Shown: positions 50 to 61,932, counted from the stretch's first letter. The stretch is 64,000 bases of DNA from Takakia lepidozioides (GCA_030704615.1 CM060733.1:20150001-20214000), one strand, 5' to 3'. Translations and numbers: made by a program. Notes: generated from the sequence alone by a model not told the origin.

Positions 50-3225
<3,176 letters not shown>

Positions 3226-8315: not shown

Positions 8316-8369
8316 GCTCGGGCCACGTTCTGGGGACGTAGAGACGTAGAGACACTTAGGGCTACAGCC

Positions 8370-14269: not shown

Positions 14270-14305
14270 GGCGGGTCAGAGAACCGTCAGGCCGTCTCAT
14301 TAATA

Positions 14306-14480
14306 TAGGAGCAAACTACCTTCATGCCTCAAGGACTTAGAATTATTTTGGGATATGAATTTTACAACTACCTCCATGCAGGTAGTTTTAGGATTTTCTA
14401 CATGAAGGTAGTTGCAAAACCAAGCTGAACTACCTGCATGCGAGTAGTTGCATACCACCTCCGTGGTAGGTAGTTACAGT
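14306..14480. repeat. Cluster of direct and inverted AACTACCT(G/T/C)CATG repeats, probably a DNA-transposon end
   Basis: Motif and its reverse complement at about 14314, 14366, 14375, 14401 and 14428. Confidence 0.45.
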
Positions 14481-17400: not shown

Positions 17401-17583
17401 GCCCATATCAATGGAGCAATATGATGTAGCAGTCACATTTCCAAGACTGCAAGTCAGACCTACCTACAAGACACTTTACAGCCTACAAAGACTAGACACT
17501 TACCTATTATGCACACCAAACTGCCTGGATAACAGTGCAACCTCCCTCTCTACATCTTCAAATCAAACCTTCATGCCTGGTTA

Positions 17584-21211: not shown

Positions 21212-26976
<5,765 letters not shown>

Positions 26977-28814: not shown

Positions 28815-29595
28815 CGTGCGCATACACAACTACATCGTTGTCCAAAACCACACAACACATGTGCACACCAAACACTAGTCTATCACTAGTCTACCACTAG
28901 TGCACCATTAGGCTGCCATTAGACAACCACTAGTCACCACTAGTGCAGCCACTAGTCCACCACTAGGTTGCCACTAGCCACCACTAGTGCAACCACTAGT
29001 CCAACCACTAGGCTGCCACTAGCCATTACTAGTGCAGCCACTAGTCCATCACAATAGATAAAGAAATGAAGATACAAGCACACAAGCTCTCTCAAACTCA
29101 CATACTTGCACATGAAAACATCACTCATATATTAAGTCAAGCCAAGTGCACCCTACGTCATGGGGAATCCACACTACGGCGCCAAAGCTCAACTCGAGAA
29201 ATGTGAGCCCACCGCGATCTGCCGTGAAAATAACAACGTCAGGTGACTAAACATATTTTGGTCCCTGGATTGACACTTGGGTCAATCTCAAATATCAATA
29301 TATAAAAGCTAACTATTTTCTAGTTAACTTCACACTAGTGGTAAAATAACTTGACAGTTGTCGTGCGCATACATATCGCTACACAACTACATCGCTGTCC
29401 AAAACCACACAACACATGTGCAGACCAAACACCCTATAGGGTAACATGTTTATCGTGTATAGGTGTTACTTGTTTCTTAAGTGCTGCTGCGAGGGCCTAG
29501 CCACTAGTCCACCACTAGGCTGCCACTAGCCACCACTAGTGCAGCCACTAGTGCAGCCACTAGTCCAACCATTAAGCTACCACTAGCCACCACTC
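28815..29595. repeat. CCACTAG-based minisatellite and a duplicated block on both sides of the left LTR
   Basis: CCACTAG(TGCAG/GCTG/TCCA) arrays at about 28870-29050 and 29497-29595. CGTGCGCATACA...CCAAAACCACACAACACATGTGCA occurs at about 28816 and 29363. Confidence 0.75.
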
Positions 29596-30183: not shown

Positions 30184-32431
30184 AAGGGGGCGTTGTCTGC
30201 TGCAGATACACATAGTCCCCAGGGTGGAAACGCCGAACACTTGGCCGATATCCCCCTCCACGTATAGTGACATACCTCAATGTGTCTCGGTGTTGGGCAA
30301 TAGCAAGATTCTCAAAAGCCATAGGCATGACTCTCTTGAACAACTCTACCCGCTGGGCACATGCTTGTGTCCACACATCCGGATCATCAAGGTTGAGGAC
30401 TACCGCAGCCTCCCTGCGAATAGATGTAGGCAAATCCGGCTCTCGGCCAAAGAGAATAAATATGGTGAGAAAGAGGCAAGTGATGTTTGCTTGCTAAACC
30501 TATAGCCCATGACTAACCAAGGTACCTGAAGATCCCAATCTCCTATGTGTCCATTTTGCAAACCATACTTACACAAACCCCTCTTCACTGTCTAAACCAC
30601 TTTCTCTGTCAAGCCATCGGCCTCAGGATGGTCCCGAGAAGTGGTATGGTGGTCTATCAAGGCTTTATCACACAAAGCCTGAAACTCGTGTGCATACCAC
30701 GCCACCAATACTGCCCCTGCAGTAAACTATGAGTGCGTCGCACTCCGAAATGCCCCAACTCCTCATGGGCATGCCGCACTAACCGTGCACGTTGTGTTGG
30801 GTGAGGCACGATCCTCACCCGACCATCCTCCCACGCTCGAAGCAGGTGTATCCCCTCCCACTTGAATCTCTTGGCTCGTTGCAGGATCCGATCCATCTCC
30901 TTGGCAGTCACACTAGCTGTCGTGTCTCCAGTGCAGAGGTAGTCCAACACAACCCAATCCTCATGTATATCTCTGGTACCACCTGACTCATCACTAGCCT
31001 CAGGGTCCTCAGACACTCCGTGTCGCGGCCCTTTGCCTTGAGGGCGGGGAGGGGTCGGGACACATGAGGGGTTGCCCCTGTGGTGGGGGCAGCGGCAGCG
31101 GCAGCAATAGGTATGGGGGGCTGAAGCACCCTTGAGTGCCCAAGGCACCCAAGGAGGCGGAGGCGCTCACTAGGTGGAGCCCCGCACACCGGGTTGCGGT
31201 GGGGGTGGCTCCACAAGGGGTGGTGGTAGCTTAGCGGGACTTAGTGGGGGTGGCTTAGGACTCACCATGGGGGCGGAGACCTCGTGGTGGGAGTCGTGGG
31301 AAGTCTTGGGACTCATCACGGTCCATAGGGGCCGTGGTGAGTGGGCCAAGACTCACCGCGACTCATCACCGGGAGTCGAGGGTTTTCGTGGTGGTTCGCC
31401 ATAAAATGGCATGGCTGGTTGTGAAACCCCCGCAGACTGCTACAGAAGTATATATAGGGAGTAGTAACCCCGAGAACGGTGCAAGCCCGTTAGTGACCAA
31501 AAACTAGTGAGTAAGCGAGCGAGCCGGAAAGCGACCAAAGAGTGGGGAGCTGTTCCGGACTGCCAACTACCAAAGGGAATTCCCGCTGGTTCCAAATCGG
31601 TGGAGGGTTCTTTGGGAGAACAAAGGGGGACCGTTATGCCCCGGTGAGCAGCCGAAGCTCCAAGTTGGCCCAGCAGCCAGATTGGGAGTCAGGCGCGCGC
31701 ATCAAAGCGAGTAACTATGACTTGAGGGGGAGCTTACCGAAGTGAGGTGCGCGACACTCCGTCTACAGTCATCCTTGTTGTAGGTCCAACCTGACCTCCC
31801 GATGCCAAGATATACAAAAAGGCAGATGCATGTCATCCCGACACCATCTCCTCGTCCGTCTCACCATGCCACCGAGCTCCAGTGTCATCATGATGGCTCG
31901 TGCATGGATTGCGACTCAATCCATCCGCATCCCTATTGACCAATCCGGTCAATGCACAACCTGAAAGTCATACTCTTGGAGTATAAGTGCCCACCTTGAA
32001 AGCTTCCCCGTAAGCTTGTCTGATTCCATCAACTACTTGAACCCCATGAAAGCTCAAACTCGGCTCACATCTGTGGGGCATGGAATCTATGCGAATACGT
32101 CTCTCTATCCAATTGCCATAGACATCCTTCTTGGCTGGCATCACCGTGGCTGAAGCATATTCTCCACCAGAGAGCTCAACTAAACCAGCCTCCCAGAGAT
32201 CTTGAGTCCTCATCTGAATCAAAGACCTCTCCATGTCACTATATCTATACGGTCTCCAAAAGATTGGCGTGTCCGTGGCCAACTCAATACGAATCTCCTG
32301 ACCCTTCAGTGCTCCCAAAATCCTTCAAACTGAAGGCAAAACAATTCCTGTAAGCCCTCAAGAACCGCCATATACGTCATCTCTCTCCTCCAGCGACAAT
32401 GGGTCCAATGTCAGGCTCCCAATTGTCCTCC
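30184..32431 (-). pseudogene. RT N-terminus, RNase H end and integrase of the DNMT retrotransposon, with deletions
   Basis: PIFWRPYRYS...YASATVMPAKKD (RT start; the YxDD region is deleted), LSRWALILQEYDF...DADGLSR, HEELGHFGVRRTHSLLQGQYWW (integrase Zn domain), HPEADGL and RFHPGDYVYL. Confidence 0.88.
31021..31756 (+). mobile_element. Solo LTR of the chromovirus family at 36621-43204
   Basis: TGTCGCG...CGCGACA termini, 5-bp TSD CTCCG (31016-31020 and 31757-31761), and near-identity to the reverse complement of 42478-43204. Confidence 0.96.
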
Positions 32432-33199
32432 CACTAGAAGCATTCGTGTCATTTACCACTGGGGTAACCACTCATTTTGAGTCATAAAAGTCAAAAAACC
32501 GGGATTGACTGGAAGTTACAAACGACTAGTTACAACAGATGTGGAAGTTGGGTCGGACATCCAATGATTGGAGTGGTGAAGGACGCAGACGCGTGAACAA
32601 TTATTGCGATTAATGCTAAAGAACCACGTGGCGTAACCAGGCGGGCTGCCTGTGTCTGACCTTTTGGGTTGACTTTGACTTTTCCCTCCGGATGAGTGGA
32701 CTGACTCACTAGAGCACGGTGACACATGGACGCGGATGTGGACGTCGATGTGGCGGCGCCGCGACGACCACCACTGCTGCCACGTAGCCACAGGCCCGGG
32801 CGCCACGTGGTAGTCGACCACATAACTTGTAGTGCTACATGCCCAGTGGCAACTGCGACTACGGAAGTCGACGCAACCACTGCTTTACTACTTTAAATGA
32901 AGTGCTCGAAATTACTTGAACAATCACTCATAGTGGTTCATGCTTTGAAGTTTTGGTGTTTGTAGTGAGCACGCATGTAATGCCATACAAGAGAATTAAT
33001 CATGTCATTAGATTCGCGAAAATAATGAAAGACATGTCATGAAACAAAATGAAATGAAAAAGAAATGAAATGAAACAAAATGGTACTTTATTACATCTGC
33101 AGAAAGCTCAAAGAGCTTATGGTACAAAATGAAAAACCAAAGTAAAAAAGCAGCCCAAAGCTACTACTGCTCTGGGGATTGCCTAAGGGTCAAGGCCTC

Positions 33200-34245
33200 G
33201 TGCAGGTAAGCTGCCAAGCAATTGTGATCCTCATAATGCAAGACTCAGTGACAGATTGAGTCCCACGGAATAGACCTGCCCATGCAGGTTTCTTGTAGCT
33301 ATTGATCCACAGGGAATCATAGGTAATCTTGTGCTTGAGATCTGGCCCTCTTGGATGAATATGGACCCACACTCTCTTTGCTCCTTTAGCTACCCATGCC
33401 TCTGCACAAATTATGCATTCATCCTTGCCTTGTTGCTAGTAGCTGACAATGATAGCCTATATTTATTCTAGGAAACACCCAACTTAACTTCTCACACTAG
33501 TTCCTATGCTGAATGTGTCTGCTACTCTATGGAATGTAACAGACATTCACCTTTTTGCCTCGGTTGTCCCATCATTGACTGGGCCAGAAAAGTATTCATT
33601 CCACAGCTTCTCCTCATCTCTGTTACTTGTTTTTTGATACTTTCATGTTGTCACATTGGCAGTATCATGTCAAAGTCACTCCAAACTAGATTCACTCAAC
33701 CAGCTAACTTGCAGAATTCAACATGGAAATTGAGGGCCGATTCTGATAAGAAGGAAATACAAGGTGAAATGTGTTGAAGAATTAGCAATGTCTGATTTTA
33801 TAAATTGTGCCGCTGCTGCCAGTTGACCATCTACCCATGCAGGTTTCTTGTAGCTACAGAGTCAATCTGGAGCTTGAAGCCCGGCCCTCTTGGGTGAATT
33901 TGCACCCACACTCTATCCCTGCTCCTTCAACTATCCATGCCTCCTATGCTGAATTGCGTCTACTACTCTCTGTCATCTAATAGGCATTCAACTTTTTGCC
34001 TCGGTTGTCCCACCATTCACTGGGGTCAACAAAGTATTCATTCCACACCTTCTCCTCATCTCTGTTATCTGTTTTGGATACTTTCCTGCTGCCACATCGG
34101 TAGTTACTTGTCATAGTCATTCCAAACCACCACAGATCCACCCAACAAGCTAACTTACAGAATTCAATATGCATCTCAGGGCCGAGTCTGATGAGAGGGC
34201 AAAACAGGCTGAAATAGGTCGAAGAAGAAGGTGCCCTCACCACAT
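33200..34245 (-). pseudogene. Two tandem degenerate copies of a two-exon PDF (OSB-type) motif
   Basis: EEKVWNEYFVDPSEWWDNRGKK (about 33990-34070) and HPRGPDLKHKITYDSLWINSYKKPAW (about 33280-33360). Further partial copies at about 33550-33620 and 33820-33900. Confidence 0.8.
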
Positions 34246-35351
34246 TGTCCTTGACAATTCAATATGCATCTCAGGGCCGAGTCTGATGAGAGGGAAAAAC
34301 AGGCTGAAATAGGTCAAAGAAGAAGGTACCCTCACCATATTCTCCAAGGCCTCTATACCATGCCCCTGCTGTGCACACCCTACAAGCATCATGTTCCACG
34401 TGATGAAAGATCGTTTTGGGGTTTAGAGCAACATAGTATCTTCTTACCATTATATCAATACCGTGGTTGGTAGAAACTAGAAACCCACCAAATGGCTCAT
34501 GGATTGTCATGAAGTACCTCACACCCAAAACACAACGTTTGGACAAGAGTACAGCTCTCTCTGCCCTTATGATCCCCTCAGTGTGGCTGGCAATTATTGC
34601 TCTTCACTCTTCCAGACGGGACCGCGTGCTTGATAAGCACCCTTCCACATTGAGGAGTATATTCTAAATGTTTGCACATGCAAGATCTCTGTTAAAACGT
34701 CACTCAGACAGCGCAATAAACTGAAAGAAAATAGACACACCAGGTATGTCAGAAACTTAAGCAGACAAGCAAGCTAATGGAAGGAGGAGAAGGGTGTCGA
34801 TTAAAATTTTGCATGAACATACATAGAACTTCTTGGACCACGATTTTCTGCTGGGATGGGTCAAGGACAATCTCAAGCCTGAAATGCTCCAATTCAAACA
34901 ACCCGGAAGAGCACAAATAGAGATGGACATTACCTTGCTTCGGTATCCCTTGAGGCCACCATCATAGCCATCAGTCAGAATGATTTGGGGCCCCGCATGG
35001 CCAAGCCGGGTACCCATTTCAGCTCCACAGACAAGCGCGTTAATCTGCTGAAGGATGTGAAGCTTCCCGCCCCCTCCCTGCAGGAAGAAGACATGGCATA
35101 GTCTTTCCGGCGAGCTCAGAGAACAGCACAGCTCGCTCCCATCCCCGGGACAGAGGGACCCTCCATCTAAAACCTCACGTGATGTGTTTCAAAGAAGAAG
35201 ACAATTGCCCTAGGCATTCAAAAACACCAAAAGTTTCTGCCAGAAGAGGCATTGTGGACTCCCTCTCTTGATCCTCTTCCAGAAGCTGCGGTCATGGTTG
35301 AGGTGCCTGATTTTATCAACTGTGCCACTGCAACTGCTGCCTTTGGCAATG

Positions 35352-35865
35352 CAACCATGCACCTCTTTGCATCTGGTAATCTGACAGGCATTCACCTTGG
35401 TACAATTCCAGCTCTAAAGATGTCGCCATGGACCTCTTTCCCATTTTCTAGAGCTGCCAGGGTAGTGTTCATAATAATATTTGGTACAACTCCAGCTTTG
35501 ATGATACCCCATGCACCTCTTTGCCCTTGTCCAGGGCTTGATGCACCCACATTTTGCATACATGTCCACCAGGGTATGGTTTAAATGACATTTGGTACAA
35601 TTCCAGCTCAACCATGCACCTCTTTGCATCTGGTAATCTGACAGGCATTCACCTTGGTACAATTCCAGCTCTGAAAATGTCGCCATGGACCTCTTTCCCA
35701 TTTTCCAGAGCTGCCAGGGCAGTGTTCATAATAACATTTGGTACAACTCCAGCTTTGATGATACCCCATGCACCTCTTTGCCCTTGTCCAGGGCTTGATG
35801 CACCCACATTTTGCATACATGTCCACCAGGGTATGGTTCAGATGACATTTGGTACAATTCCAGCT
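35352..35865. repeat. Near-perfect 257-bp tandem duplication in PPR coding sequence
   Basis: CAACCATGCACCTCTTTGCATCTGG starts at both 35352 and 35609. Confidence 0.9.
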
Positions 35866-37841
35866 CTGAAGATGTCGCCATGGACCTCTTTCCCCTTTTC
35901 CAGAGCTGCCAGGGCAGTGTTCAAAATGACAAATTTTGGTACAATTCCAGCTTTGATGACATGCACCTCTTTGCCTTTGTCCAGGGCTGCCAGGCTTGCA
36001 CAAGCATTGCAAATGCACACAAACTTGATGTGGCCGGGCTTCACCCCTTCCCCCATCATTTGATCATAGGTCTCCAAAGCATCAGTCCCACGTCCCTGTT
36101 GTGCATACCCTGCAAGCATCGCACTCCACGACACCACATCTCGTTTAGCCATAGTGTCGAAAACTCCCTATGCATCCTCAATGCATCCCCATTTGGCATA
36201 CATGTCCAGGTTAGGATAGTGTATCTGGTGCAATTCCAGCTTTGACCGATGTCACCATGGACCTCTTAATTCCCCTTTTCTAAGCTTGCACACGCATTGC
36301 AAACACATACAAACGTGAAATCATCCATGATGCTCCCCTTACCATACATGTTGACAAGGTTGTTGAGTAGAAAAACGTTCGGCGTGAATCCACTTTGGAC
36401 AATGTGAGTGTGCATCTGCTTTCCAACTTCCAGGCCTTTCATCTTGATGCACTTATGCAAGAGACATACATACGTATCTACATCTGCTAGTATGCCTCCT
36501 TGGTTTAAAGTCTGTAGAGCCTCTTTCAGTCTGCCTGCCTCATAAAGCATCTTCACATGCCCATAAGTGCCAGAAGAGGCATTGTGGACTCCCTCTCTTG
36601 ATCCTCTTCCAGAAGCTGTGTGTCGCGCACCTCACTTCGGTAAGCTCCCCCCCTCAAGTCATAGTTACTCGCTTTGATGCGCGCGCCTGACTCCCAACCT
36701 GACCGCCGGGCCAACTTGGAGCTTCGGCTGCTCACCGGGGCATAACGGTCCCCCTTTGTTCTCCCAAAGAACCCTCCACCTATTTGGAACCAGCGGGAAT
36801 TCCCTTTGGTAGTTGGCAGTCCGGAACAGCTCCCCACCGGGCTCCACCTAGTGAGCGCCTCCGCCTCCTTGAGTGCCTTGGGCACTCAAGGGTGCTTCAG
36901 CCCCCCATACCTATCGCTGCCGCTGCCCCCACCACAGGGGCAGCCCCTCATGTGTCCCGACCCCCTGCCCTCAAGGCAAAGGGCCGCGACACACACACCT
37001 AAACACAGGGAGTCGATGTCCTCATCGACTTGTCCATTTTGTAGAAACGAACATCCAAGTTGTGGCGTCCCACATCAAGGAGTTTGTTTCCGTACCATGG
37101 CGTCCCATGGCAAAGAACCAAACCCCACACTTGACTCTACTCTCCACTAGCTAGTTCGGCCGACTTCCTCCAAGTCCCGGCCAAGGGTGGAGCCTCTCCA
37201 GCTCCTCCCAGTGCACTCTTCTTGGCCTACTTCAAGGCCAAGGAACGATCCTCCCCAAGGATCGAATCGCCTTACTGCAACAACATTGCTTGCGATCGCT
37301 CATGATGCCGCTTTTGGCATCACCTTGAGCAAGGGTTCACCTGGAACCCTCTTTGACTAGGACGATAACCTTGAACCAACCGTGCGCCCCAATCACTGCA
37401 ATTGGGTCCGCCTTGGAATGCTGGCCTAAGGTACGGGAACACGCCGAAGCCGCACTACGACTTCGTCCCGAGGCTACACGATTATAGTACGTGAACGGAA
37501 GCACGTAGCTTCCGCGTTAGCCCGCACTACAAGGCAACCCCCTCGGTAGCGCAGTTATAGTACGCGCACGCGCCAGGTGCGCACTAGCACGTGAACTCCC
37601 AAAGAAGGCGCAAGTTTCCTTGCCCCTTGGATGGGGGTCACCCGATTTTGGCACTACGCAAACACACGATTAACCCAATCTACCTCTCCCACTTTTATAA
37701 GCTAGCATGCATTCTACACACTAGCCAACCATACCATGCATCAACATTCCAAACAAAATAGGATGTACAACATTTGGAAGCCATTTCATTTATAGCACGT
37801 TTTGTACAATACAAGTTTTTGCAATCGGATTACTAAGCTAG

Positions 37842-40800
37842 CTAAGCCGGGCTAAGCATGCATTTCCTCCCCCACGCTCCAAGGTTGATGTCCCCATCAA
37901 CGCTTCTTCCGCTTTTGAGGTCGCCCTTTGAAAACTGCAACCACCTCGGATGCGTTTCCCATTTCTGAGGCACGCACCCAAGATGCCTCCACATGACGAG
38001 ATACTCCGTTTCTCGGTTCTTGAACCTCCTCGACTTAAGTACTGCCTCCACCTCGTACTCAGGTTCATTTTCATGATCCAACAGCACAGGTGGCGGACGC
38101 AACACTTGATGCCGATTCGGGCGCGCTTCATCTTTGATGTAAGGCTTCAAAAGGGAGACATGGAATACTGGGTGCACTTTGCTGTTTGCCGGCAGCTCCA
38201 ATTCATACATATCCTCATTCATAACCTTCCGAATGCGAAAGGGTCCCGCATACGGAGGCACGAACTTCGGGCTCACTTCCGGAGGTAGTCAAAAATTCTT
38301 GATGTTCAACCAGACCTCCGTGCCTGCCTCAAACTTCACTTCCCTCCGCTTCCGATTTGCCTGCCTTTCATACCGTTTCCTAGCTTTGGCAATGTTGTAC
38401 TTTGCGAGCTTCAACAAACGCTCGCGTTCTTCCAGTACCGCCACTACTGCCGGTTCCTCAACATCCTGGGCGACCCAACTTGGCACCAGAGGTGCTTTTC
38501 CATAGACCAATACGAAAGGGGAAACTCCTGTTGCGGAGTGTTCTGTGTTATTATAACAGAACTCTGCCGCGTCTAAGTGTTCCACCCAGTCTGTTTGGTC
38601 TGCCGACACGTAATTCCGCAAGATCTGCTTCACTACGGAATTCACTCTTTCTGTTTGGCCGTCGGTCGTAGGTCGGAAGGCGGTGCTCATCTTTAGCCTC
38701 GTCCCCATCTTCTTCCAAAGTGCCCTCCAAAATTTACTCGTAAACTTTGGATCGCGATCCGAGACAATATCCTTCGGGACTCCATGATGCTTTAAGACGT
38801 GGGCAAAATAAAGTCATCCTGTCTCCTGCGCTATTGCCGTCTCCTTGGTGGGGATGAAATGGCCCATTTTACTAAACCTATCCACCACCACCATGATTGC
38901 ATCGAATCCTTTTGACAGCGGCATAACAGTCATGAAATCCATCGAGACGTTTCCCAAGTCCCCTCCGGAATCGGCAAAGGTTGTAACAGCCCTGCTTGCT
39001 TTCTGTACTCGCTCCGGTTTTGTTGGCATGTGGTGCATGTCTTGACATACTCCTCTGCCTCCTCCCTCAGTTTGGGCCAGAAATACTCTTTCTTCAAGAG
39101 TGCCGCAGTGCGCTTGGCTCCGCCGTGGCCCGCAAGCGGGCTATCATGGCATTCTCTCAAGAGGCTATCTCTGATCCCTCCCTTCGGTACGTAGAGACGC
39201 TTTTGCTTATACCGGAGCAGTCCATTTTGCAAGTGGAACTGCGATTTAACCCCCATCCTCAAGTCCTGCATCACGGACTTCGCCAGCTCATCCTTCCGGC
39301 AAGCCTTCCGGATCTTCCTTTGGAGCGCCGTCTCGCCTTTGTACACCAACAAGAGCTGCTGCTTTCTACTTAAAGCATCGGCCACCACGTTGTCTCGCCC
39401 CGGTTTGTACTGGATATCCACGTCGAACACCGCCAAAGTATCTTGCCACCTAAGTTGTTTTGGGGACAACTTGGGCTGCGTGGCAAAATACTTCACCGTG
39501 ACATTGTCCATGAACACCTTCACTGGGTTGGAACCAACATAGTGGCGCCAAAGCTCAAGGCAATACACCACCGCCTTCATCTCTTTTTCATGCGTCGGCC
39601 ACCGTTGCTCCACTTCATTCAGTTTCTTACTTTCGTAAGTCACTGGACGTCCATCTTGCATAAGTACACCCCCAACCGCGAAGTCCGACGCATCTGTATG
39701 AATCTCAAATGGACGATCGAACTCCGGGATTTTCAAGACTGTAGCTTCCGCCATCCGCTGCTTCAATTCAGCAAAAGCTTGGGCACAAAATGTGTTCCAT
39801 ACCCAGACTTTGGATTTACACAGAAGGTCCGACAACGGCCCCGCGATCTTGGCGAAATTTCTCACATACTTCCGGTAATAGGAGGCGAGTCCTAGGAAGG
39901 AACGCACTCCCAGGACCGAAGTTGGAGGCTCCCAGTCCAAGATCGCCCTCACATTTCTGTCATCCATTTTGATCCCATCCTGTGTAATCACATGCCCCAA
40001 GAACTCCACTTTCGTGACCCCGAATTCGCACTTTGAAGCTTTGGCATACAGCTTTCCTTCTTGCAATTTTTGGAACACCCTTTTGAGGTGCTCCAGGTGC
40101 TCTTCCTTTGTTTTCGAGTACACCAAGATGTCGTCGATGTACACGATCACAAAGTCATCCAACCACTCCTGAAAAAGGCTGTTCATCAGCGTGCTAAATG
40201 TCGCTGGTGCATTGGTGAGCCCAAAAGGCATCACCAAGAACTTATATGAACCATACCTTGTCCTGCACGTGGTCTTCTCCTCATCTCCTTCCGCCACCCG
40301 AATTTGATGATAGCCGGAGCGCAAGTCGATCCGGCTGAAATACTTCGCTCCTGCCAACCGATCAAAGAGGTCGTCGATCCTTGGCAAATGGTATCGGATA
40401 GTCACCTTATTCAGAGCCCTGTAATCGACACACATCCGCAGCGTCCCATCCTTCTTGTCTGCGAATAGCACCGGGGCTCCGTAAGGTGACTTACTCGGCC
40501 GGATGTACCCCTTTGACATTAGATCCTTGAGCTGAGTCTTCAGCTCGACCAACTCCCTGTGGCTCAACCGGTAGGGTGCCTTGGCAGGCGGTTCCGTTCC
40601 CGGTATCACCTCAATCTTGTGGTCAACTCCTCTTCGTGGTGGCAAGCCGCTTGGTAAATCCTCCGGCATCACATCCTGGTATTTCTCCAAAATCCCCTTG
40701 ATCCAATCTGGGCTCGACTCCCCATCGCCTTCTCCCTTCACTTCTCTAATGTAAAGCAAAAACTGGGGTTCGTGTGTCTCCTCCACGGCCCACTCCCTTG

Positions 40801-42422
40801 CTGACAGAAGGTTTATTCGCCCTCCCACGGATTTGGGCGTTTCCGACACTCGTAAGACCTCGCCACCATGGCAGCGTGACTACTCTCTTGCGGCCATCTA
40901 TGACCGCTCCGGATTTGCTCAAAAAGGTCATCCCCAAAATGAGATCTACTCCATCGATCTCGCAGATGGTGAAGTTCTCACGTCCCTCCCAACTCCCCAG
41001 TTGAAGAGGAACATCAAACGCCAACCTTGTCGCCAACTGTGGTTCTCCTTTGGCAGAACGCACCTCAATAGAGGCCCCCACGTCACTTGTCGGGAGTCCC
41101 AGCTTTTGTGCCGTTGCCGGTGTCATGAAGGAGTGCGACGCTCCTGTGTCCACCAACAACGACACATTAGTTCCGGATATTATCCCATCCACGAACAATA
41201 ACTGACTCCCTTTTCGTAAGGCGCCAGTTTCCTGATACAACTCACAAGAAAATTTGCCTACCTTGCAAGTCCTGGCGACCACCGCTTCCACCAAGCAACT
41301 GATGGTATCTTCCGATAGCTCCGTGGTCGCCCGAGTCATGTTCAATTGCCGGGGCTTCGTGCACTTCTTGGCCATGTGCCCGGGCTCCCCGCAATTGAAA
41401 CACACTCCATCAAAGGTCGCCTTTTGTCCGCCATAAGCCGCTCCACCCGCTTTTCCTTTCGAAGCACCGGGTGCCGCCTTGACGTGTGAAGGCCCTCCCT
41501 TCGATTTCCATGTGCCATTGTCGCCACGTGGCCTATCCCACTTCTTTTCCGGTCGGAAGGAGTCACCTTCCCGCCGGGTCTTCTTGTGGTTCAGCTCCGT
41601 ACGGCCTTGTCTCTCACCCCTAGGGACATCCGAGAAACATTCAGCCCTCTCAATTGCCTCGTTCAAAGTCTTGGGTGGCTTCTCCTCCAACTTCCGCCTG
41701 GCCCATGGGGCCAGTCCCGCCACAAAGTTGAAGACCATTTCTGGTTCTGCCATGTCCGCGACTTCGAGCAACAGCACATTGAAAGCCTGGACATACCCTC
41801 GAATGTCATCTGTTTGCTTCAAATTCCTCATCTTGTCCCGTGCAAGCCAGGACGCGTTGAGGGGCACAAACTGTCTCTTCATCAATTCCTTGAACCCACT
41901 CCAATTCAAGGTTTCCGGGCTTGGACCTCGGTCGTGAAGGCGTTTCTGCCACCATTGTTGAGCATAGCCCCTCAAATAGGTGGGAGCCACTTCCACCCGA
42001 TCCTCGTCACTCAACTTGGCCGCCCGGAAGTACTGCTCTAGCTCCAGGAGCCAGGTGTTGAATGCCTTCCGATTTCGGACGCCCTCGAAGGTGCCGGGTT
42101 CCTTAGGCTTCACCTTAAACTTTGCCTTAATGGAAGTGGCATTAGCCGCCTTCAACACGTCTTTCAACGTCCCGCCAAACTGCACCAACAACCCTTCCCA
42201 AAAGGCTGCCGGCATGGGAGGCATCTCTTGGTTTGTCGGAGCTCTCAAGGATTCCTCGGGCTCCGACTCCTCGGATTCCTCCCGCTCTTGAGCGGCCTCG
42301 TTTTCGGAAACATTCATCGCTTCCTCAAACGGCCGCCTCGGTGACACGTCGCCCCCATCGGGCTCACCGGGATCATCATCTTTTGGGCCGTTCCGCTTTC
42401 GCTTCGGCTTGCCCGACCCCAT
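37842..42422 (-). pseudogene. Chromovirus gag-pol (Gag, Zn knuckle, protease, RT, RNase H, integrase, partial chromodomain)
   Basis: [47 protein letters not shown]...CTTC, TDGQTERVN, GPFRI and YEVEAVLKSR...EYLVMWR. Several frameshifts. Confidence 0.95.
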
Positions 42423-42463
42423 GATGAGGCCAATCCCAAGGACGATCGCGTACTGAACTCTAA

Positions 42464-42475
42464 GCTCTGATACCA
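42464..42475 (-). promoter_or_regulatory. Primer binding site for tRNA-iMet
   Basis: TGGTATCAGAGC two bases inside the 5' LTR. Confidence 0.95.
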
Positions 42476-44479
42476 AGTGTCGCGCACCTCACTTCGGTAA
42501 GCTCCCCCCTCAAGTCATAGTTACTCGCTTTGATGCGCGCGCCTGACTCCCAACCTGACCGCCGGGCCAACTTGGAGCTTCGGCTGCTCACCGGGGCATA
42601 ACGGTCCCCCTTTGTTCTCCCAAAGAACCCTCCACCTATTTGGAACCAGCGGGAATTCCCTTTGGTAGTTGGCAGTCCGGAACAGCTCCCCACTCTTTGG
42701 TCGCTTTCCGGCTCGCTCGCTTACTCACTAGTTTTTGGTCACCAACGGGCTTGCACCGTTCTCGGGGTTACTACTCCCTATATATACTTCTGTAGCTGTC
42801 CACGGGGGTTTCATAACCAGCCATGCCATTTTATGGCGAACCACCACGAAAACCCTCGACTCCCGGTGATGAGTCGCGGTGAGTCTTGGCCCGCTCACCA
42901 CGGCCCCTAAGGACCGTGATGAGTCCCAAGACTCCCCACGACTCCCACCACGAGGTCTCCGCCCCCATGGTGAGTCCTATGCCACCCCCACTAAGTCCCG
43001 CTAAGCTACCACCACCCCTTGTGGAGCCACCCCCACTGCAACCCGGTGTGCGGGGCTCCACCTAGTGAGCGCCTCCGCCTCCTTGAGTGCCTTGGGCACT
43101 CAAGGGTGCTTCAGCCCCCCTACCTATCGCTACCGCTGCCCCCACCACAGGGGCAGCCCCTCATGTGTCCCGACCCCCTGCCCTCAAGGCAAAGGGCCGC
43201 GACACTGTGGTCATGGTTGAGGTGCCTGATTTTATCAACTGTGCCGCTACAACTGCCGCTTCCAGCTGACCATCTACCCATGGAGGTTTCTTGTAGCTAT
43301 CCTTCACAAGGAACCATAGGTAATCTGGAGCTTGAAATCTGACCCTCTTGGATGAATATGGACCCAAACTCTATCCTGCTCCTTCAGCTATCATTGCCTC
43401 TGCACGCATCATGCCCCCGTGTTGCCCCCTTTTACCAGGCAACAGGTTCCCAACCAGGGCCTCATGAGAAACGCAATATTTCTGTTTTATGTTTATGGTG
43501 GTAATGACAACCATCCTTGCCTTGATGCCAATGCGATCATCACACTCCACCACTCCACATCTCGCCACAGTCGAACACTACCTTTGCATCTTCAATGCTC
43601 CCGCATTCGGCATACATGTCCACCAGGGCGGTGTTCAGAATGGCAAACCCTACAATTCCAGCTTTCACGATGTCACCATGGACCTTCCATGTCACTTCCA
43701 GGTGGAGGCAGTACATATTAAAATATCTATTCCCCCAAGGCCTGTTCTTGTGAAACACACGTCAGTAAATGTGCCCCCGAATCACGGGTGCAATCAATGC
43801 GCAGTGGTTCATGGAGTCGTTGAGTCGACTACATATTCAATTTAATGAATAAAATATCTTTATTCCATTAATCGAATTAAGAATGAATATTTCTAGTCGC
43901 ATGTGCAGTAATTAGAACCACTTGTAGTTTTCGTTTTTTCAAATTTATGTATTTACGCAATTAATTAAATAGTCTGGATTTTTGCTACGACTCCGGAGTC
44001 GTTGACCGCACTTCTGTCCGCCGTCTGAAATGCCCCTATGGGCCCACATTGTCCGTTTCGACTTTCCAGTAGTCCCACTTACTGCCAAGTGGTTCCCGGA
44101 GTGGTTGGCGGACACCCAGTCGATTCGGAAAAGACACGAATGCTTCTAGTGTCCGTAACTGCAACCTTAAGTCCAGCAAACTTAGAGGTATGAGATGCGT
44201 CTCGTGGTTGCTATGCCGCAACCTCATGAGCAATACTCCCTGCCTGCTCAGTCAATGACAAGGCCTCATCCTGCCCCATCATCTCATCCTTGAGGACCTC
44301 CTCAACCCGAGAAGAATCCCCAACCTCCTCCATCACAGCCGCCTTGGCTGCCAACTCCCTCTGAACCTTGAGCACCTCCTACGTGTGCCATGGATGTCTA
44401 CACCCCGTGGTCCTCACCGGCTCGCCCCCACTCAATGCATGTACCGTCTCGGTAGGCAGAGAGACCGTCGAGGGAAGTG

Positions 44480-45470
44480 TACTCCGCACTCTACGTTGCT
44501 CAGCCATAGCCAAGCTGATAATCCAGGTCAAGCAATTGAGATCCATCGCTTGCCCCAACACCTGACGGCGTGATGCGTCAGAAAGAAAAGGCACCGCCAT
44601 GGTCCCAGTGGAAAGACCCATAGCCCGCTCTCGCTCGTCGGCATTAGGCTCCACTAACTGCTGCAGCTGAGCATCCCACAGGAGGCCAGGTCCACTATCC
44701 CGGAAAGCATGCGATCCTGGGAAGCTGAGCAGTGTAGGTAGTGTTGCTCGTGGTTGACCCACCTTGTTGACAACTGCCAAAGGCGGACGGTCATCGTGTC
44801 TCACACCCTGAGACTGTCTCCTCGTGTCCAAGATGCTATCCACTATGAGATATGCTAGCCACTGCACCCCATCAAATGCACGCTTGAGCAGTGCGGGTGG
44901 CATCAAGTTAGTCCACCATAGCCGTGAACGATGAGCCCGTGACCCCACTGCAGCTGCATCCAGCAACACTACTGACCCAAGCCACGACCGGACTTGATGC
45001 ACACTGGCCATCACCTTGGCCCGAGAATCGCCCATCAGTGGCACATTCTCCAAGATGTATGCTGGAGATACAACTTGATGAAGCTGTAAGAGGCGCAAAA
45101 CCCGCACCATCTCCCAAACAGACCCGACTTCGAGTCTCGCAATCCATTGTCATGCCCGGCTGATGAATGTCCTTGGCAGGGCCAACCTGCCACTACCAGA
45201 TTAATGGAGCCAACCCGCTCCAAATCTTGCGCCCCCAACAACGGAATGTCTGCTGGCAAGGCCTGCTGATATCCACGAATTGCAGACACCGACAACAACT
45301 CAGGGTACTGCTGCACCAACTGAGCAACATGATGGAGTGAGATGTGTCGTGTAGTCTCATCCCTCTCCATATACAAGTAATGCCGTACCCATACATCTGC
45401 CTGTAGCATAGCAGCCAATCCGGTGCTGATCCCACCAAACAAGTCCAGAAGGCAAATGCCTTCATCCGGA
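44480..45470 (-). pseudogene. C5-cytosine DNA methyltransferase domain (DNMT3-like, non-permuted) within the retrotransposon pol; one frameshift at about 45118
   Basis: Motif I LLDLFGGISTG, II YMERDE, IV LVVAGWPCQG, V GLRDSKSGLF, VI ILENV, VIII RAHRSRLWWTN, IX ERERAMG and X RRQVLGQAMD. Confidence 0.93.
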
Positions 45471-45879
45471 CACTGCCACACGATCGGTGTGGTGTCCAAT
45501 GGTGACAACTGAGGTGGTCCTGGTGCAATCCCCGCACTGTCCTCCTCTCCTGATGGTACAAAAGCCTCTACCCAGGTTTGTTGCACACGATAATCAGCAA
45601 CTCACTGCAAATCCTTGCTCGAGCCCCAGAATGGAGTGTGAGCAACCATGGTAGGCAACTCCGCCATACCATACATGTCATCCTGCTCTCCCGGAGATGA
45701 CACATCCTCTGAATGAGCATTGCCCTCCAGCAAACTCTCCAGACCAACTCACTGCAGCTGTGAATGCTGCCAGTGTCGGCATCTTGCCTCGCTGGGCAAC
45801 TGCAACTCCTCCGATGAACGTCACAGGGAGCTGCACACGCCGGCCCTCCCCTGACTGCCATCCAATGCCTATAGGAAGC

Positions 45880-55410: not shown

Positions 55411-56329
55411 GTCTCTAGTTATTTACTCTAACTAGGGCTTCGCATGGGTCTCCGTATTTTATTGTTTGAGGGGTAGTTGAACCCCCTCTTTCTGTATTTT
55501 CCCCTTGTTTAACATTTGTTTCATCCAGTCCAGAAGTCCGTTCTTTACATCTTTTCCATCACTCATCATTTAGTTTCTCAACATTTAGTTTTATTGTCTT
55601 TGATAAAAAATGATCAGTCTTGATAAAAAATAATTGTCTTGACATTGATAATTGTTTTCTTCAAACTCAAGAATTGGTTTCTTCAAACTCAATTCAACTT
55701 TCAATTAGAACACATTTTGTTCAAAGATTTATCAAACTAGGGTTTTAATGTAATCGGTATTTGCGCTCAACAGAATGTGCCCAAGAAAACCCAGTGCCGC
55801 TGCATAGTACCTGCCATTGTGAATGCCCTACCTTTATTTCTTCAATTAACATACCAGCCCTGATTGAGTGTCTATGGTTGGCTAGGAGCACAATAGCTAA
55901 CTCGGCACCATTTTGACCTTATGCTTTGGACTATTTTCTAAGATTTCCACCATGCAACCAAACTGAGATGTGCTGGGGCTCAACAGTTCTCTGCAACTGT
56001 TGGCCAGGAATATCCACTTGACAGCAAAGTTCCTCCCACCCAGCACCGAAGGCAGTCATGGGAATTCCACAGACAAAGGTATGAAATTCAGCCTAGAAGT
56101 TCCAGAGCTGGCATTCAACAAGAGAGTGGTGATAGCATGCAACATGCAGCGCTATACCTGAAAGCACTAACTGTTAAAGATTTACACATCCGTCATAATT
56201 CATGACTTCTCAAACTCTGAATTAGGGGAGAAACAGTCAAGAAAGGGAAAGTATGGCACCTGGTTGTGAACCATGTAAAGGAGGAAGGGCATACAAGAGC
56301 CAGCCCCGTACTTGCATGTGGCAGATATG

Positions 56330-58440
56330 CATTGGCATGTCATTGCACTCCATAAGACCACGTCTCGCTCAGCCATATTGTTGAACACTAGAAAGGCCTC
56401 CCTTACACTCCCACATTTCGCATACATGTCTGCAACAAGGGCAGTCTCCATATTAATATATGACGGAATTCCAGCTTTGATAATGTCAGCATGGATCTCT
56501 TTGCCCTTCTCCAGGGCCACCATGCTGGCACAAGCATTGAGAACACAAATGAATATATGACCCTGTCGGGCATCACACCTTCCTGTTGGATTCTATCATA
56601 GATTTTAATGGCCTCTGTGCCACAACCCTGCTGGGCATATCCTGCTATCATGACGCTCCAGGAAACCACATCCCGTTCAGCCATTTTGTCAAATACTTTC
56701 AGTGCATCCTTCATGCTCCCACATTTGGCATACCTTTCGACAAAGGCAGTCTCCAGAAAGATATCAGTCCAAAAATCCAGCTTTGATGATGTGAGTATGG
56801 GCCTCTTTGCCCTTTTCCAGGGCCCCTAGCCTACAACACGCATTGAGCACACACGTAAACGTGACCCTGTCGGGCATCACCCCTGGTCCACGAGGGCATT
56901 GTTCAGAATGACATTGGGTACAATTCCAGCTCTGACGATGTTGCCATGGACCTCTTTGCCCTTTTCTAGAGCTGCCAGGCTTGCACATGCATTGCAAACG
57001 CACACAAACATGATGTGGTTGGGCTTCACCCCTTCCCCCATCATTTGCTCATAGGTCTCCAAAGCTTCCACCCTGCGTCCCTGCTGTGCATACCCTGCAA
57101 TCATCGCGTTCCACGACACCACATTTTGTTCAGCCATATTGTTGAAGACTGCCTTTGCATCCTTAATGCACCCACATGTGGCATACATGTCCATGAGGGC
57201 AGATTCAGAATGACATCTGGTACAATTCCAGCTTTGAAGATGTCACCATGGACCTCTTTCCCCTTTCCAGGGCTCCCAGGCTTGCACATGCATTGCAAAC
57301 ACAAACAAACGTGATGTGGTTGGAGCTTCACCCCTTCGCGCATCATTTGCTCAAGCATCCCATGCTTGGTAAATCCTGCCAACATTATATTCCACGTGAT
57401 CAAAGATGGTTGAGGCATTTTGTTGAACACTTGGTGAGCATCCATGATGCTCCCGCACTTAACATACATGTTGACAAGGGTGTTGAGTAGAAAAACGTTT
57501 GGCCAAACGCCAGCGTGAATCCACTTTGGATAATGTGAGTGTGCACCTGCTTTCCAACTTCCAGGCCTTTCATCTTGATGCACTTATGCAAGAGACAGAC
57601 AGACGTATCTGAATCTGCTGAAATGCCTCCTTGGTTTAAAGTCTGTAGAGCCTCTTTCAGTCTGCCTGCCTCACAAAGCATCTTCACATGCCCAGAAGTG
57701 CCAGAAGAGGTATTGTGGACTCCCTCTCTTCATCCTCTACTAGAAGCTGTGGTCATGGTTGAGGTGCCTGATTTTATCAGCTGTGCCGCTGCAGCTGTTG
57801 CCTTTAGTTGACCATGTACCCATGCAGGCTTCTTGTAGCTGTTGAACCACAGGGAATTATAGGTAATCTTGTGCTTGAAATCTGGACCTCTTGGATGAAT
57901 CTGGACCCACATTCTATCCCTGCTTCAGCCATCCATGCCTCTGCACAAATCATGCATTCATCCTTGCCTCACTGCTAGCAGCTGACAATGACAGCCTAGA
58001 TTTGTTCTAGGAAACACCCAGTTGACCATCTACCCATGCAGGTTTTAGATATCCGTCCACAGGGAATCATAGGTAATCTTGAGCTTGAAATCCGGCCCTC
58101 TTGGATGAATCTGGACCCAAACTCTATCCCTGCTCTGCACAAATCATGCATACATCCTTGCCTTGCCGCTAGAAGCTGACAATGACAGCCTAGATTTGTT
58201 CTAGCAAACACCGCAACCCTAATTATCACACTAGTTCCTATGCTGACTTGCAGTTCCAACAGGCATTCACCTTTTTGCCTCGATTGTTCCACCCTTGACT
58301 GCGGTCAGAAACACATTCATTCCAGAGCTTCTCCTCGCCACTGTTATCTGCTCTTCGACCCTTTCCTATTGCCACATTGGCAGTAACATGTCAAAATCAC
58401 TCCAAAACCACCATAGATCCACCAACGAGCTAACTTGCAG
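56330..58440 (-). pseudogene. PDF-PPR (PLS-class) pseudogene copy A
   Basis: EEKLWNE..WNNRGKK, then a GT intron, then IHPRGPDFKHKITYNSLWFNSYKKPAWV in frame with MLCEAGRLKEAL (one TGA between). Several degenerate P/L/S motifs follow (MYAKCG, DVVSW, GKEVH). The second PDF exon is duplicated at about 58020-58112. No E/DYW domain was seen. Confidence 0.88.
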
Positions 58441-58519
58441 AATTCAACATGAAAATTTAAGGACGACTCTGATTACAGGGAAAAACAGGCTGAAATGTGT
58501 TGGAGAAGGTGCCTTCATT

Positions 58520-58700
58520 ATACCCACATTGCCACCAATATCCTTTGAAGTGTCCAGGCCATCAATCACTTCTTGATTGTAGCCCAATGTATGCTTGAGA
58601 TCAGCATAGTAGAGAGAAAATACGTATGAAATTCCACCGCAGGCTTGCATCCACATGCCAAGACACAACCCTAACCACTTGTCGTTCAGAAATTTCTTTA
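58520..58700 (-). pseudogene. N-terminal fragment of a nodulin-like MFS transporter (NFD4-like)
   Basis: KWLGLCLGMWMQACGGISYVFSLY.ADLKHTLGYNQ...SKDIGGNVGI matches TM1-TM2 of plant nodulin-like MFS proteins and ends abruptly. Confidence 0.8.
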
Positions 58701-58959
58701 CCTCAACCCCCTCATTTCTCAAATAGGCTATCACCCACTATAGCGTGATTGTCAGGTCTCTGGCATCATCTGTAATTAGAATGCTGACCGTGCGCATACA
58801 TTTGCCTACACTTCAGCTTGTCTAGTTTGAGCAACATTTCACCTGTGGCCCAAGACAGAGAAAAAAGACACAATTTTGTTGTTGCTGCCAAGGAGAAGAT
58901 ATAATCCGGGTTAAATTGAACCAACCTGAACGGTGTCGATGTCCATAGTAAGTGGAGCA

Positions 58960-59490
58960 CTTGAAGGCATTTCCACATGGAGTGTGTCGACCAGAGAAGA
59001 GCTATAAAAACTGACTCCTCGTTCTTAAACAGAGCCTCCACATCAAACTCCTTGCTCCAGTCAGCTACAATTGCAGATTTGGCATGCTCACTGACCTCCC
59101 GCATAGGTGGCCCACTGTGTAGTACGGGATTTTTCCTGCCATCGAAACAGGAATGTCAGTTCCAAGAATCTTCTCGAAGAGTCACCAAAGTAACTGTGGA
59201 TTCTTGGCTTGCATTTGAAACGTATATAAGTGGTTTTACTGTAAAAGGAATTGTACATGTATCCCTAGTAATGCTGAAGATGTTGAGCTGGGTTACACAG
59301 GACTGAGACCTTCATTCCAGTCGTGAAGCACAATACGTGCAATTGCAACAGTGTCACCCACTCCCCCCTTTTTGAGCTTTCCACGCACCGTAAATTTTGC
59401 AAGAACTCATCAACATACGGTTGAACTTGGCAACCTTGTAAGTTGACATCAGCTTCTCCGCAGGACACAGCTGCAATATCTGCTTCACTG
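58960..59490 (-). pseudogene. C-terminal fragment of a nucleostemin-like GTPase (NSN1/GNL3), two exons, frameshifted
   Basis: KQILQLCPAEKLMSTYKV / VDEFL / GKLKKGG..ARIVLHDWNEG, an intron, then KIPYYT..PP...WSKEFDV. Confidence 0.8.
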
Positions 59491-61932
59491 TCAAAAAAAA
59501 TAAAACCAACTTGTGGTCAAATTAGAGTTGATGGATGTGTTTTCATCCCCCATTGCTGGAAATCCTAATATTGGTGACCATTTCTATCTCTGCCTCTTGT
59601 GTGTGTTGCTTGTGTTTGTAGTCAGGTGATGTCGGATTGGTCTGTGAGAACCACCACGGTGTAGCTGAGCAGGCAGAGATGGAAACACGGCCTGCTAAGA
59701 CCAAGCTGACTCTCCCAAGAACCTTGTAAACATTAGGAAGAATACCAAATCATGGTACTAACAGGAGCCAAGAGCCCACATTTGCATCTGCGATCGGTGT
59801 GTGAAACAAATCCCTCCGCACTCCACAAATCATGCATACACCCTCGCCTTGCCTCGATTGTTCCACAAATCCCTCCGCACTCCAAAAATCACGCATCCTC
59901 GCCTTGCCTTGATGCTTCTCCTCGTCTCTGTTATCTGTGAAAAACCCGAGATCCGTGTGTGAAACCCGTCAGCGCTCAAGCCATCATCGTCACTTCCCCG
60001 CGCTTCCCCGCGCCGCCGGTTATTTTTGGGCATTTCGGGCAGGTTTCAAAGAAATTGACGACGACGATGACCTGGCTACGATGACGTGAGTACGATGAAG
60101 TGGCGACAAAACGTGGCACTATGGCACCCTATTCCTGCTCTACGCTAAACTAACTTCCGACCTTTGGTCGGAAGCTAGAACTTCAGTTGGCGTCATATAT
60201 ATATATGTATACCTATACATCTCTTTAAAAATATTATATTAAACGGAACTTGGGAAACTTCGACGGATGCTTCCTCCCCTTTGATTTAAAAAAGAAAAAA
60301 AAAACTGTCAATACGTTGGGAGACTGACGGACCTGCCAGCCCCGTCACCCACATACCAGACTTTTCATCCATTTCTTACAATGAAAATGATATAATTTCT
60401 AACAACCCGTTGATTTTTAATTATGTATATAGAGATAATAGGGCCCACCCGGCTCTGAAAAGGTACTTAAAAAAAAACAAAAAAAAAAGGTACAATAGCC
60501 GAACGGTGAAATGGCTTTTTGGGCAGGTTTGGGCATTCAAGGCTCTACATAAACGTATTTTCTTTATTTACATAAATACAAATATATAAACACAACTTAT
60601 CATGAAATGCACACTTCCCGCATGACAGGCCTTTTCACTCACAGCGATGATGTCTTACGCGTGTGAGGGTAGGCTAACCTCCAAAACCCAAAATGAATGA
60701 CCTGCTCCATGATCAAGGGAACGTAAAGGGAACGGTACCCGGCGCTCTCGAACGCTCTAATTACCTGAGGGCACGCGATCTTGTGAATGCGGAACGGCCG
60801 GGTCCCGGGGTTTTTCCCCGGCCGGCGACGACCAACAGTGTCCGAGCAGAGAGACGAGGGATATTGCAAGGAGGAGAAAAAGGGTTATGGAATTGAGGGT
60901 GAGAGATTGGAGTCGTGGAATTTGTAGTAGATTGAGCTTCACATAATTTTGAGATCGTTTGTCTCCGTGGTCCTTAAAGTTCTCTCCCCTGTTCTCTGCC
61001 ATTTTCCCCCGTTGAACTTGTCTTTGATTCTCTGAGGTTTATGGATTTTGGTTCTGGATAACGGGACCGCCTTTAATGGACTCGGTCTTTTAGCTGCCCT
61101 TGCAGTATTTGAGATTGGGCTTGGTTTGTTGTGTTTTCCAACGGTTTCAGAAAATCTGAAGGATCTGCAGATTTTGAGGGAATTCCAAGTCGAGATGCTT
61201 TGCCAGTTTGTTTGGGTGGCAACATAGACGTTATGAGCCGGCGACCAAGTTTTCTTATAGAAGAAAAAAACTTCTGCAGATCAGTTCACGAGGTATTTGC
61301 CAATTGTACAGCTGCTTACACTGCTCACTTTCTTCTTCTCTGTGCACCACCCCACTGTTTTATTTCACACATGTAGATGTTAAACTGCGAACTGATTTAT
61401 TTTGTTGTTTGAAAACTCAATTTATGATGTTGACGAATGCAGGCAAGCAGATATTCTATGATATCGTCACTGGAACTCACACTGAAAGTCTCTACTGCAG
61501 ATTAGGTACCGATTCAACATTTTATTCTTTCTCGAGGGACGAATTGTTGAGTCTGTAGTCCAAATCCCGAGGCAGCTGAATTTAGAAACAGTATCAGTTC
61601 TCTAACATGAGTTTGCCACCTAGCTGAGGAAGACGTCCCTTTACTCTTTCTCCTCCTCTCTGTGTAGGTTTAGCTCTGGCTTCAGCATTGACATTGGTTG
61701 AAATGCCCGTGCACCAGATTCTGTTACCTAGTTTGTAAGAAATCCAATTGGACTACACTCACACGACCTCTACAAAGTTTCTCTCACATGAACCGGGAAG
61801 CTTACCCTATCCTATTTTGGCTTTTCTCAGTATCCGGTAAGCAATTTTAGCATCTTTGGTTACCAAAGTATTTTCCTGTCAAATTCTGCTGGAGCTCAAG
61901 CAGTACTTCATTTTGATACTACAGCTCCCACC

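What the first reader, a model, noticed from the sequence alone, without database searches (positions are those of the whole stretch)
32432..44151. Pack-CACTA element transporting PPR and other gene fragments
Seen: perfect 19-bp CACTA TIRs and a TCC TSD enclose about 5.1 kb (excluding the nested chromovirus) with no transposase. The cargo is several PDF exons, PLS-PPR arrays and unidentified exons, with a close paralogue of the cargo about 12 kb downstream. Inference: CACTA capture could be one mechanism that amplifies and shuffles PLS-class PPR genes (the family that includes RNA-editing factors) in this lineage.
Basis: partly seen in the sequence, partly recalled or inferred. Interest (0 to 1): 0.7.

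Follow-up and report, generated by a model that had tools for sequence, protein, structure and literature searches.

The report
CACTA transposon carrying broken PPR genes
This is a real cut-and-paste plant transposon without its own enzyme that carries scrambled, broken pieces of a large family of organelle RNA-binding (PPR) genes and likely copies some of those pieces around the genome, a known kind of element with no sign here that it makes working genes.

Summary
Confirmed: perfect 19-bp CACTA inverted ends and a TCC duplication enclose 5,131 bp plus a nested 6.6-kb chromovirus, with no transposase. Public contigs show the empty site in other copies of the host retroelement, the same end at other sites, and other interiors behind it, so this is a mobile multi-copy family and the refuter 'TIR unique' fails. 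The cargo is a same-strand mosaic of PLS-PPR pieces, halves of a likely OSB-type PDF motif split by a predicted intron, and unidentified DNA. Every piece is frameshifted, all three splice acceptors are dead, and no E/DYW domain is present. One contig bridges the PPR-to-terminus junction at several times low-copy depth, so fragments are likely being multiplied. But this junction holds about 1-2% of that PPR motif's summed contig depth (a rough measure). The 'paralogue' 12 kb away is 84-94% alike and is itself a broken mosaic, not a shown donor. Verdict: a Pack-CACTA (known kind) that amplifies and shuffles PPR fragments; amplification of working editing genes is not supported. No genome was held, and the PDF identification got no database hit.

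The parts
32429..32431 (.). left target-site duplication TCC
   Evidence: empty site seen
32432..32450 (+). left 19-bp CACTA terminal inverted repeat
32451..33086 (.). left sub-terminal region shared by a multi-copy family; short AACCACT-type motifs shared with the right end
33087..33275 (-). unidentified high-depth piece, absent from the paralogue; possibly a 3' end of the PDF-PPR family (inferred)
33276..33781 (-). PDF module copy: upstream DNA, exon 1 (ends 33551, internal stop), predicted 190-bp intron with GT donor and dead CAT acceptor, exon 2 (starts 33360)
   Evidence: OSB-type label recalled
33789..34345 (-). second PDF module (exon 1 ends 33992, shortened intron with both splice sites mutated, exon 2 and linker) with a 90-bp internal duplication (94%)
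34341..34419 (-). short PPR piece
34401..35237 (.). 837-bp unidentified low-copy cargo, not in the paralogue
   Evidence: no family hit
35238..36318 (-). duplicated linker (96%) and scrambled, frameshifted PLS-PPR pieces with a 257-bp tandem duplication (97%)
36322..36620 (-). linker end and first helices of the PLS-PPR array; best block against the paralogue, 282 of 299 bases
36621..43204 (-). nested Ty3/gypsy chromovirus-type LTR retrotransposon, TSD CTGTG, LTRs 367 of 368 aligned bases identical, one LTR internally deleted
43210..43414 (-). third PDF exon 2 (dead CAT acceptor) and alanine-rich linker; continues into 36620-36322 across the retrotransposon
43415..43531 (.). 117-bp unidentified piece
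43532..43685 (-). PPR piece joined to the right sub-terminal region; junction bridged by a contig at depth 12.5
43686..44132 (.). right sub-terminal region shared by a multi-copy family; other interiors join at 43686 and 43698
44133..44151 (-). right 19-bp CACTA terminal inverted repeat
44152..44154 (.). right target-site duplication TCC
56200..59970 (-). outside the element: the 'paralogue', a frameshifted mosaic of PDF pieces, a likely NUG1/GNL-type GTPase piece, a Nodulin-like piece and PDF-linker-PPR; no termini found

Best explanation
This is a non-autonomous CACTA transposon of a multi-copy family, inserted into an older retrotransposon, whose interior is a mosaic of broken PPR and likely PDF-motif gene pieces that it likely took up as DNA and that a transposase made elsewhere would move. 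Shown: ends, target duplication, empty site, other insertion sites, other interiors, broken cargo, later insertion of a young chromovirus. Inferred: a piece of a high-copy PDF-PPR gene was captured with its intron. Repeated template switching during repair of excision gaps, onto sister copies and the many similar PPR genes, then duplicated and reordered the modules, all on one strand, and added two unrelated pieces. PPR DNA is likely the cargo because it is so abundant in this genome. The outcome is likely a few to tens of pseudogene mosaics, a minor by-product of the PPR expansion and not its engine.
For: Ends and TSD. Empty site: 3 contigs of X5 continue behind 32431 with letters matching 44155 onward (first 19 identical, 25 of 30). 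Other sites: 4 of 32 listed pieces (X1 r6, X2 r16, X5 r23, r24) and one X6 loose end reach the TIR tip and carry 34-237 outer letters that do not fit this flank. Other interiors: loose ends before 43686 (2 contigs) and 43698 (1 contig). Terminus contigs reach depth 37 and 61 in X5 and 724 in X2, against 2 for low-copy cargo contigs in X5 and 7-17 for the other listed X2 contigs. Predicted intron retained, GT..CAG intact in the paralogue. 41 of 41 cargo-paralogue alignments are on one strand. Internal duplications are 94-97% identical. No E/DYW hit.
Against: No genome was held, so no second full-length copy and no autonomous partner were seen. Contig depth is not a copy number, the tables were cut (32 of 2,665 pieces), and X5 is a metagenome. 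The capture route is not tested; one-strand orientation is partly trivial if most modules are duplicates of one captured piece. The intron is predicted only: no spliced joint was among the 15 of 213 listed, and RNA-guessed contigs cross the exon 1 boundary unspliced. The PDF/OSB label got no database hit.
Confidence: 0.8

Rival explanations
1. CACTA capture is a real source of new working PLS-PPR genes in this lineage: other family members carry whole or re-spliced PDF-PPR(-DYW) genes, and this copy is a decayed example.
For: The PPR-terminus junction appears multi-copy. The cargo keeps PDF exon 2, linker and PPR start in gene order. Family interiors vary. RNA-guessed contigs of the family join linker to PPR (X8, 5 contigs before 35238).
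Against: All cargo is frameshifted, 3 of 3 acceptors are non-AG, and no E/DYW is present. Behind 43685, 200 (X1), 141 (X2), 24 (X5) and 60 (X6) contigs continue as ordinary PPR repeats; the junction holds about 1-2% of summed depth. PMC13386178 (section 6) ascribes these expansions to dispersed duplication with retroposition.
Confidence: 0.1
2. The ends belong to a CACTA family, but this interior is a one-off: two neighbouring elements, or one element and a pre-existing local mosaic such as the paralogue, were joined by aberrant excision (Catoni model) and moved once.
For: The central 837 bp is low-copy (X1 bins 132-450). A similar mosaic lies 12 kb away with no termini of its own. The model is documented (PMC6379663, section 17).
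Against: The right junction is bridged at depth 12.5, matching a terminus contig identical to this copy at 12.3. The paralogue is only 84-94% alike, lacks 2,409 of 5,131 bases of the element, and at one tested 30-mer equals the family majority (30 of 30) while the cargo differs (28 of 30).
Confidence: 0.2
3. The PDF-PPR module is itself mostly mobile DNA (for example Helitron-borne or retroposed) that inserted repeatedly into an ordinary non-autonomous CACTA.
For: The module, non-coding parts included, has very high contig depth. Both PDF-PPR loci in the window are mosaics, and a third PPR scrap lies at 7236-7327.
Against: No TIR/TSD pair of note or Helitron end was found around the paralogue, and no Helitron 3' end inside the cargo. 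The predicted intron argues against retroposition. I did not scan each module for its own TSD.
Confidence: 0.08

Closest known systems
Arabidopsis Pack-CACTA1a and relatives (Catoni et al. 2019, PMC6379663: abstract, sections 15 and 17 read; Gisby and Catoni 2022, PMC8903248: passages)
   Same: CACTA-starting TIRs, 3-bp TSD, a few hundred bases of family-specific ends, no transposase, varying chromosomal cargo, some of it unidentifiable.
   Different: Cargo is dominated by repeated, reordered pieces of one large gene family (PDF-PPR). It holds a nested LTR element. The host is likely a seed-free land plant (inferred, not resolved). Mobility was not observed directly.
PLS-class PPR proteins and their expansion in early-diverging land plants (PMC13386178: passages and section 6; PMC9459714: passages)
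   Same: P-L-S type repeats and the N-terminal helices match a Ginkgo PLS-DYW protein (36% over 113 aa).
   Different: No E/DYW domain and no open frame. A PDF-like motif precedes the array. The paper credits retroposition, and the words OSB and PDF do not occur in its main text (supplements not seen).
OSB proteins and their PDF motif (PMC6963530, PMC4166229, PMC6451138: passages; Zaegel et al. 2006 not held, recalled)
   Same: A motif with the Pro-Asp-Phe signature, about the reported size once the predicted intron is removed.
   Different: It lies in front of PPR repeats, with no SSB/OB domain seen. Membership was not confirmed by any database hit.

Membership tests
CACTA (En/Spm) DNA transposon | short TIRs beginning CACTA | tested here: met
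CACTA (En/Spm) DNA transposon | 3-bp target-site duplication made by insertion | tested here: met
   TCC/TCC; empty site. 3 bp per PMC6379663 section 15; one passage of PMC8903248 says 5 nt for rice and maize
CACTA (En/Spm) DNA transposon | sub-terminal repeats | tested here: inconclusive
   a 7-mer occurs 7 times over both ends; no shuffle control run
CACTA (En/Spm) DNA transposon | autonomous partner with TnpA/TnpD transposase | not testable with these tools
   no genome held
Pack-CACTA | no transposase inside | tested here: met
Pack-CACTA | host gene fragments between the ends | tested here: met
   PPR hits; the same sequences continue as ordinary PPR repeats elsewhere
Pack-CACTA | ends repeated in the genome, with varying interiors | tested here: met
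   contig pieces only, no second whole copy seen
Pack-CACTA | fragments from more than one locus | tested here: inconclusive
   837-bp and 117-bp pieces are not in the paralogue but are unidentified
PLS-class PPR RNA-editing factor | open P-L-S array with E/DYW domain | tested here: not met
   frameshifted pieces; no hit with the E-DYW part of P0002 at E 0.01
OSB-type PDF motif | about 50-aa motif with Pro-Asp-Phe signature, homologous to OSB proteins | tested here: inconclusive
   signature present; no hit in Pfam, the protein searches or the Atlas at 0.9 or more; likeness to OSB is recalled

The most novel reading that the evidence does not exclude
A CACTA family in a seed-free plant captures and recombines PDF-PPR genes at the DNA level, and some members carry or rebuild intact, expressed PDF-PPR(-DYW) proteins with new repeat orders, giving a DNA-transposon route to new RNA-editing specificities beside retroposition.
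Probability: 0.1. Interest if true: 0.72.

Novelty: new member of a known kind. Interest (0 to 1): 0.4.

Why it matters
PPR proteins read RNA one base per repeat, so reordering repeats could create new targets. How thousands of PLS genes arose in hornworts, lycophytes and some mosses is currently credited to retroposition (PMC13386178, section 6). This locus shows a DNA transposon taking up, duplicating and reordering such repeats, which makes the alternative testable with a genome. As it stands the products are dead and a small share of PPR DNA. The practical lesson is that PPR counts in such genomes may include transposon-borne fragments. I found no paper on CACTA-borne PPR cargo or on PDF-PPR fusions (open-access main texts only).

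Tried and rejected
No whole genome was held, so the TIR-pair census and the fraction of PPR loci inside CACTA ends were not computed. The TIR had 0 exact matches in metagenome contigs. The cargo PPR frame gave 1 locus there (L001, 31 residues, E 2e-4), treated as chance and not read. No RNA holder is on record; X6 and X8 are RNA by guess, so their depth is not used to rank expression, and low cover over the left end is not counted as silence. PDF half-motifs found no OSB relative (2 Ginkgo PPR hits and none; Atlas best scores 0.81 and 0.83). The all-against-library profile search never ran. The 837-bp piece had no Pfam or PDB hit. A weak 'Transpos_assoc' Pfam hit (E 0.0026, below cut-off) on the paralogue's PPR start was rejected. 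The search for termini around the paralogue gave 3 weak 14-mer pairs with 2 mismatches and no Helitron end. The P450 search did not place the lineage: 45-49% to mosses and a liverwort, 48-49% to several angiosperms. 'PDF = peptide deformylase' was considered and dropped: no Pfam hit. The neighbour as direct donor was rejected on identity.

Full report
1. Observation. The element is as described. The 19-bp ends at 32432-32450 and 44133-44151 are identical inverted copies starting CACTA and are flanked by TCC on both sides. Only these 2 matches occur in the window at up to 3 mismatches, and 0 of 100 shuffles reached 2. A Ty3 chromovirus-type element of 6,584 bp with TSD CTGTG is nested at 36621-43204; its LTRs agree at 367 of 368 aligned bases, so it is young. 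Without it the element is 5,131 bp, with no stop-free stretch above 173 codons and no transposase family among the frames scanned.

2. It is a true insertion and a family. No genome was held, so I laid public contigs on both ends (runs; X1 and X2 are one sample, X5 is a plant metagenome, X6 and X8 are RNA by guess). In X5, 3 contigs run on behind 32431 with letters that match the right flank from 44155 (first 19 identical, 25 of 30). That is the empty site, with one TCC, in other copies of the host retroelement. At the right end, 4 of the 32 listed pieces and one listed loose end reach the TIR tip and carry 34-237 outer letters that do not fit this flank (2,633 pieces and 106 loose ends were not shown; for minus-strand records I infer which side the unaligned letters lie on). 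Other interiors join at 43686 (2 contigs) and 43698 (1 contig). Single terminus contigs have depth 37.2 and 61.4 in X5 and 723.5 in X2; low-copy cargo contigs have 2 in X5, and the other 7 listed X2 contigs have 7-17. The tool warns that depth is no copy number, so I read this only as multi-copy, probably tens.

3. Cargo. All recognisable pieces lie on the minus strand (41 of 41 alignments to the paralogue share orientation). From the right end: a PPR piece; 117 unidentified bases; PDF exon 2, an alanine-rich linker and the start of a PLS array, interrupted by the retrotransposon; scrambled PPR pieces with a 257-bp duplication at 97%; a second linker at 96%; 837 unidentified low-copy bases; a PPR scrap; two PDF modules; and an unidentified high-depth piece. 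The PDF motif reads PSEWWDNRGKK then IHPRGPDFKHK in the best copies, split by a predicted phase-0 intron that is GT..CAG in the paralogue; all three cargo acceptors are CAT or CAA. The Pro-Asp-Phe signature and 50-residue size are from PMC6963530 (passages). The likeness to OSB proteins is recalled and got no database hit. Splicing is not shown: no such joint was among 15 of 213 listed, and RNA-guessed contigs cross the exon boundary unspliced. The E-DYW part of a Ginkgo PLS-DYW protein finds nothing in the window.

4. How much does it amplify? X5 record 17 bridges the PPR piece into the right sub-terminal region with 1 difference at depth 12.5, and a terminus contig identical to this copy has 12.3. 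A sub-family likely shares this junction, while the middle 837 bp is low-copy (X1 bins 132-450 against 13,441-116,485 for the left end). So members share outer cargo and differ inside. Against a large role: summed depth on the PPR motif versus just past the junction is 1,119,248 against 20,781 (X1), 126,320 against 1,122 (X2) and 1,726 against 12.5 (X5), and 200, 141, 24 and 60 contigs continue behind 43685 as ordinary PPR repeats. This is rough, one gene has many such motifs, and other CACTA families were not examined.

5. The paralogue. Collinear blocks are 83.7-94.3% identical and cover 2,722 of 5,131 bases. At one 30-mer the paralogue equals the majority of 49 X1 contigs (30 of 30) while the cargo has 28 of 30, so its likeness may only reflect the family average. 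It is frameshifted and mixes PDF and PPR with a Nodulin-like piece (E 9.5e-13) and a likely NUG1/GNL-type GTPase piece (weak PDB hits, E 0.5 and 0.09). No termini were found around it. It is a second mosaic, not a shown donor.

6. Mechanism. Shown: insertion, family, broken cargo, later retrotransposon insertion. Inferred: movement by a transposase in trans; DNA-level capture, because a predicted intron and upstream DNA are kept; and serial template switching in gap repair, which fits the same-strand, reordered, 94-97% identical duplications (general knowledge, recalled). The paired-insertion and aberrant-excision route of Catoni et al. (PMC6379663, section 17) may account for the first capture. 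PPR DNA is likely taken because it is abundant; genomes of this kind hold 1,583-3,256 PPR genes (PMC13386178, section 6), though the lineage here was not resolved.

7. Comparison and novelty. The element meets the testable Pack-CACTA features (PMC6379663 sections 15 and 17; PMC8903248 passages). A 2026 review of gene capture has no mention of PPR, moss or bryophyte in its main text (PMC13317346, passages). Searches for CACTA-borne PPR cargo or PDF-PPR fusions found no paper (open-access main texts only; supplements not seen, and they could list such domain combinations). Unchecked notes of this scan report PDF-PPR-DYW families and Pack-CACTAs in peat mosses. I used them as leads; they lower the surprise of the fusion within this scan but are not support.

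8. Verdict. Observation confirmed, interpretation partly supported. New member of a known kind, interest 0.4. The bold reading, that CACTA capture makes new working editing factors, is not excluded: probability 0.1, interest 0.72 if true.

Noticed in passing
window 29057-50835 (minus strand; methyltransferase frames 45038-45601 and 44382-45149): The CACTA sits inside a decayed, high-depth Ty3/gypsy-like element with gag/protease, a C5 cytosine methyltransferase domain (Pfam PF00145 E 6e-5; DRM2 E 0.04), RT-like frame at 31971-32324 (recalled, no Pfam hit) and integrase zinc finger; direct repeats 29057-29356 and 50522-50835 are 93% alike. It resembles KnitGypsy-Dnmt3 of Klebsormidium (PMC5890265, passages) but lies in a land-plant-like genome.
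   Followed up: partly
window 57403-57924 (minus) and 43357-43210 with 36620-36322: A likely OSB-type PDF motif runs through an alanine-rich linker into a PLS-PPR array; the linker-PPR join recurs in 49 X1, 10 X5 and 5 X8 contigs, so it is a high-copy family. Possibly of more interest than the transposon; I found no paper.
   Followed up: partly
window 56200-59970: A second frameshifted mosaic (PDF, likely NUG1/GNL GTPase, Nodulin-like, PPR) with no recognisable termini; its vehicle is unexplained.
   Followed up: partly
window 31021-31756: Solo LTR (736 bp, TSD CTCCG) of the same family as the nested chromovirus, in the opposite orientation, 96% alike.
   Followed up: yes
window 36621-36991: One LTR of the nested element lacks about 357 internal bases although the rest is almost identical to its partner.
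   Followed up: no
window 7236-7327: Isolated PPR scrap, 87% alike to 36110-36202, beside a decayed LINE-like endonuclease (5125-6146).
   Followed up: no
window 502-3222 and 12189-14081: Ordinary host genes: mitochondrial-type ATP synthase beta subunit and a cytochrome P450.
   Followed up: partly
window 61792-62955: 388-codon frame with no Pfam hit; its start looks like a pantothenate kinase N-terminus (recalled, untested) followed by a long insert.
   Followed up: no
window 14239-14719 and 5484-24009: A 34-bp inverted pair 413 bp apart (MITE-like), and a CACTA-starting 11-bp inverted pair with CAT on both sides 18.5 kb apart that may be chance.
   Followed up: no
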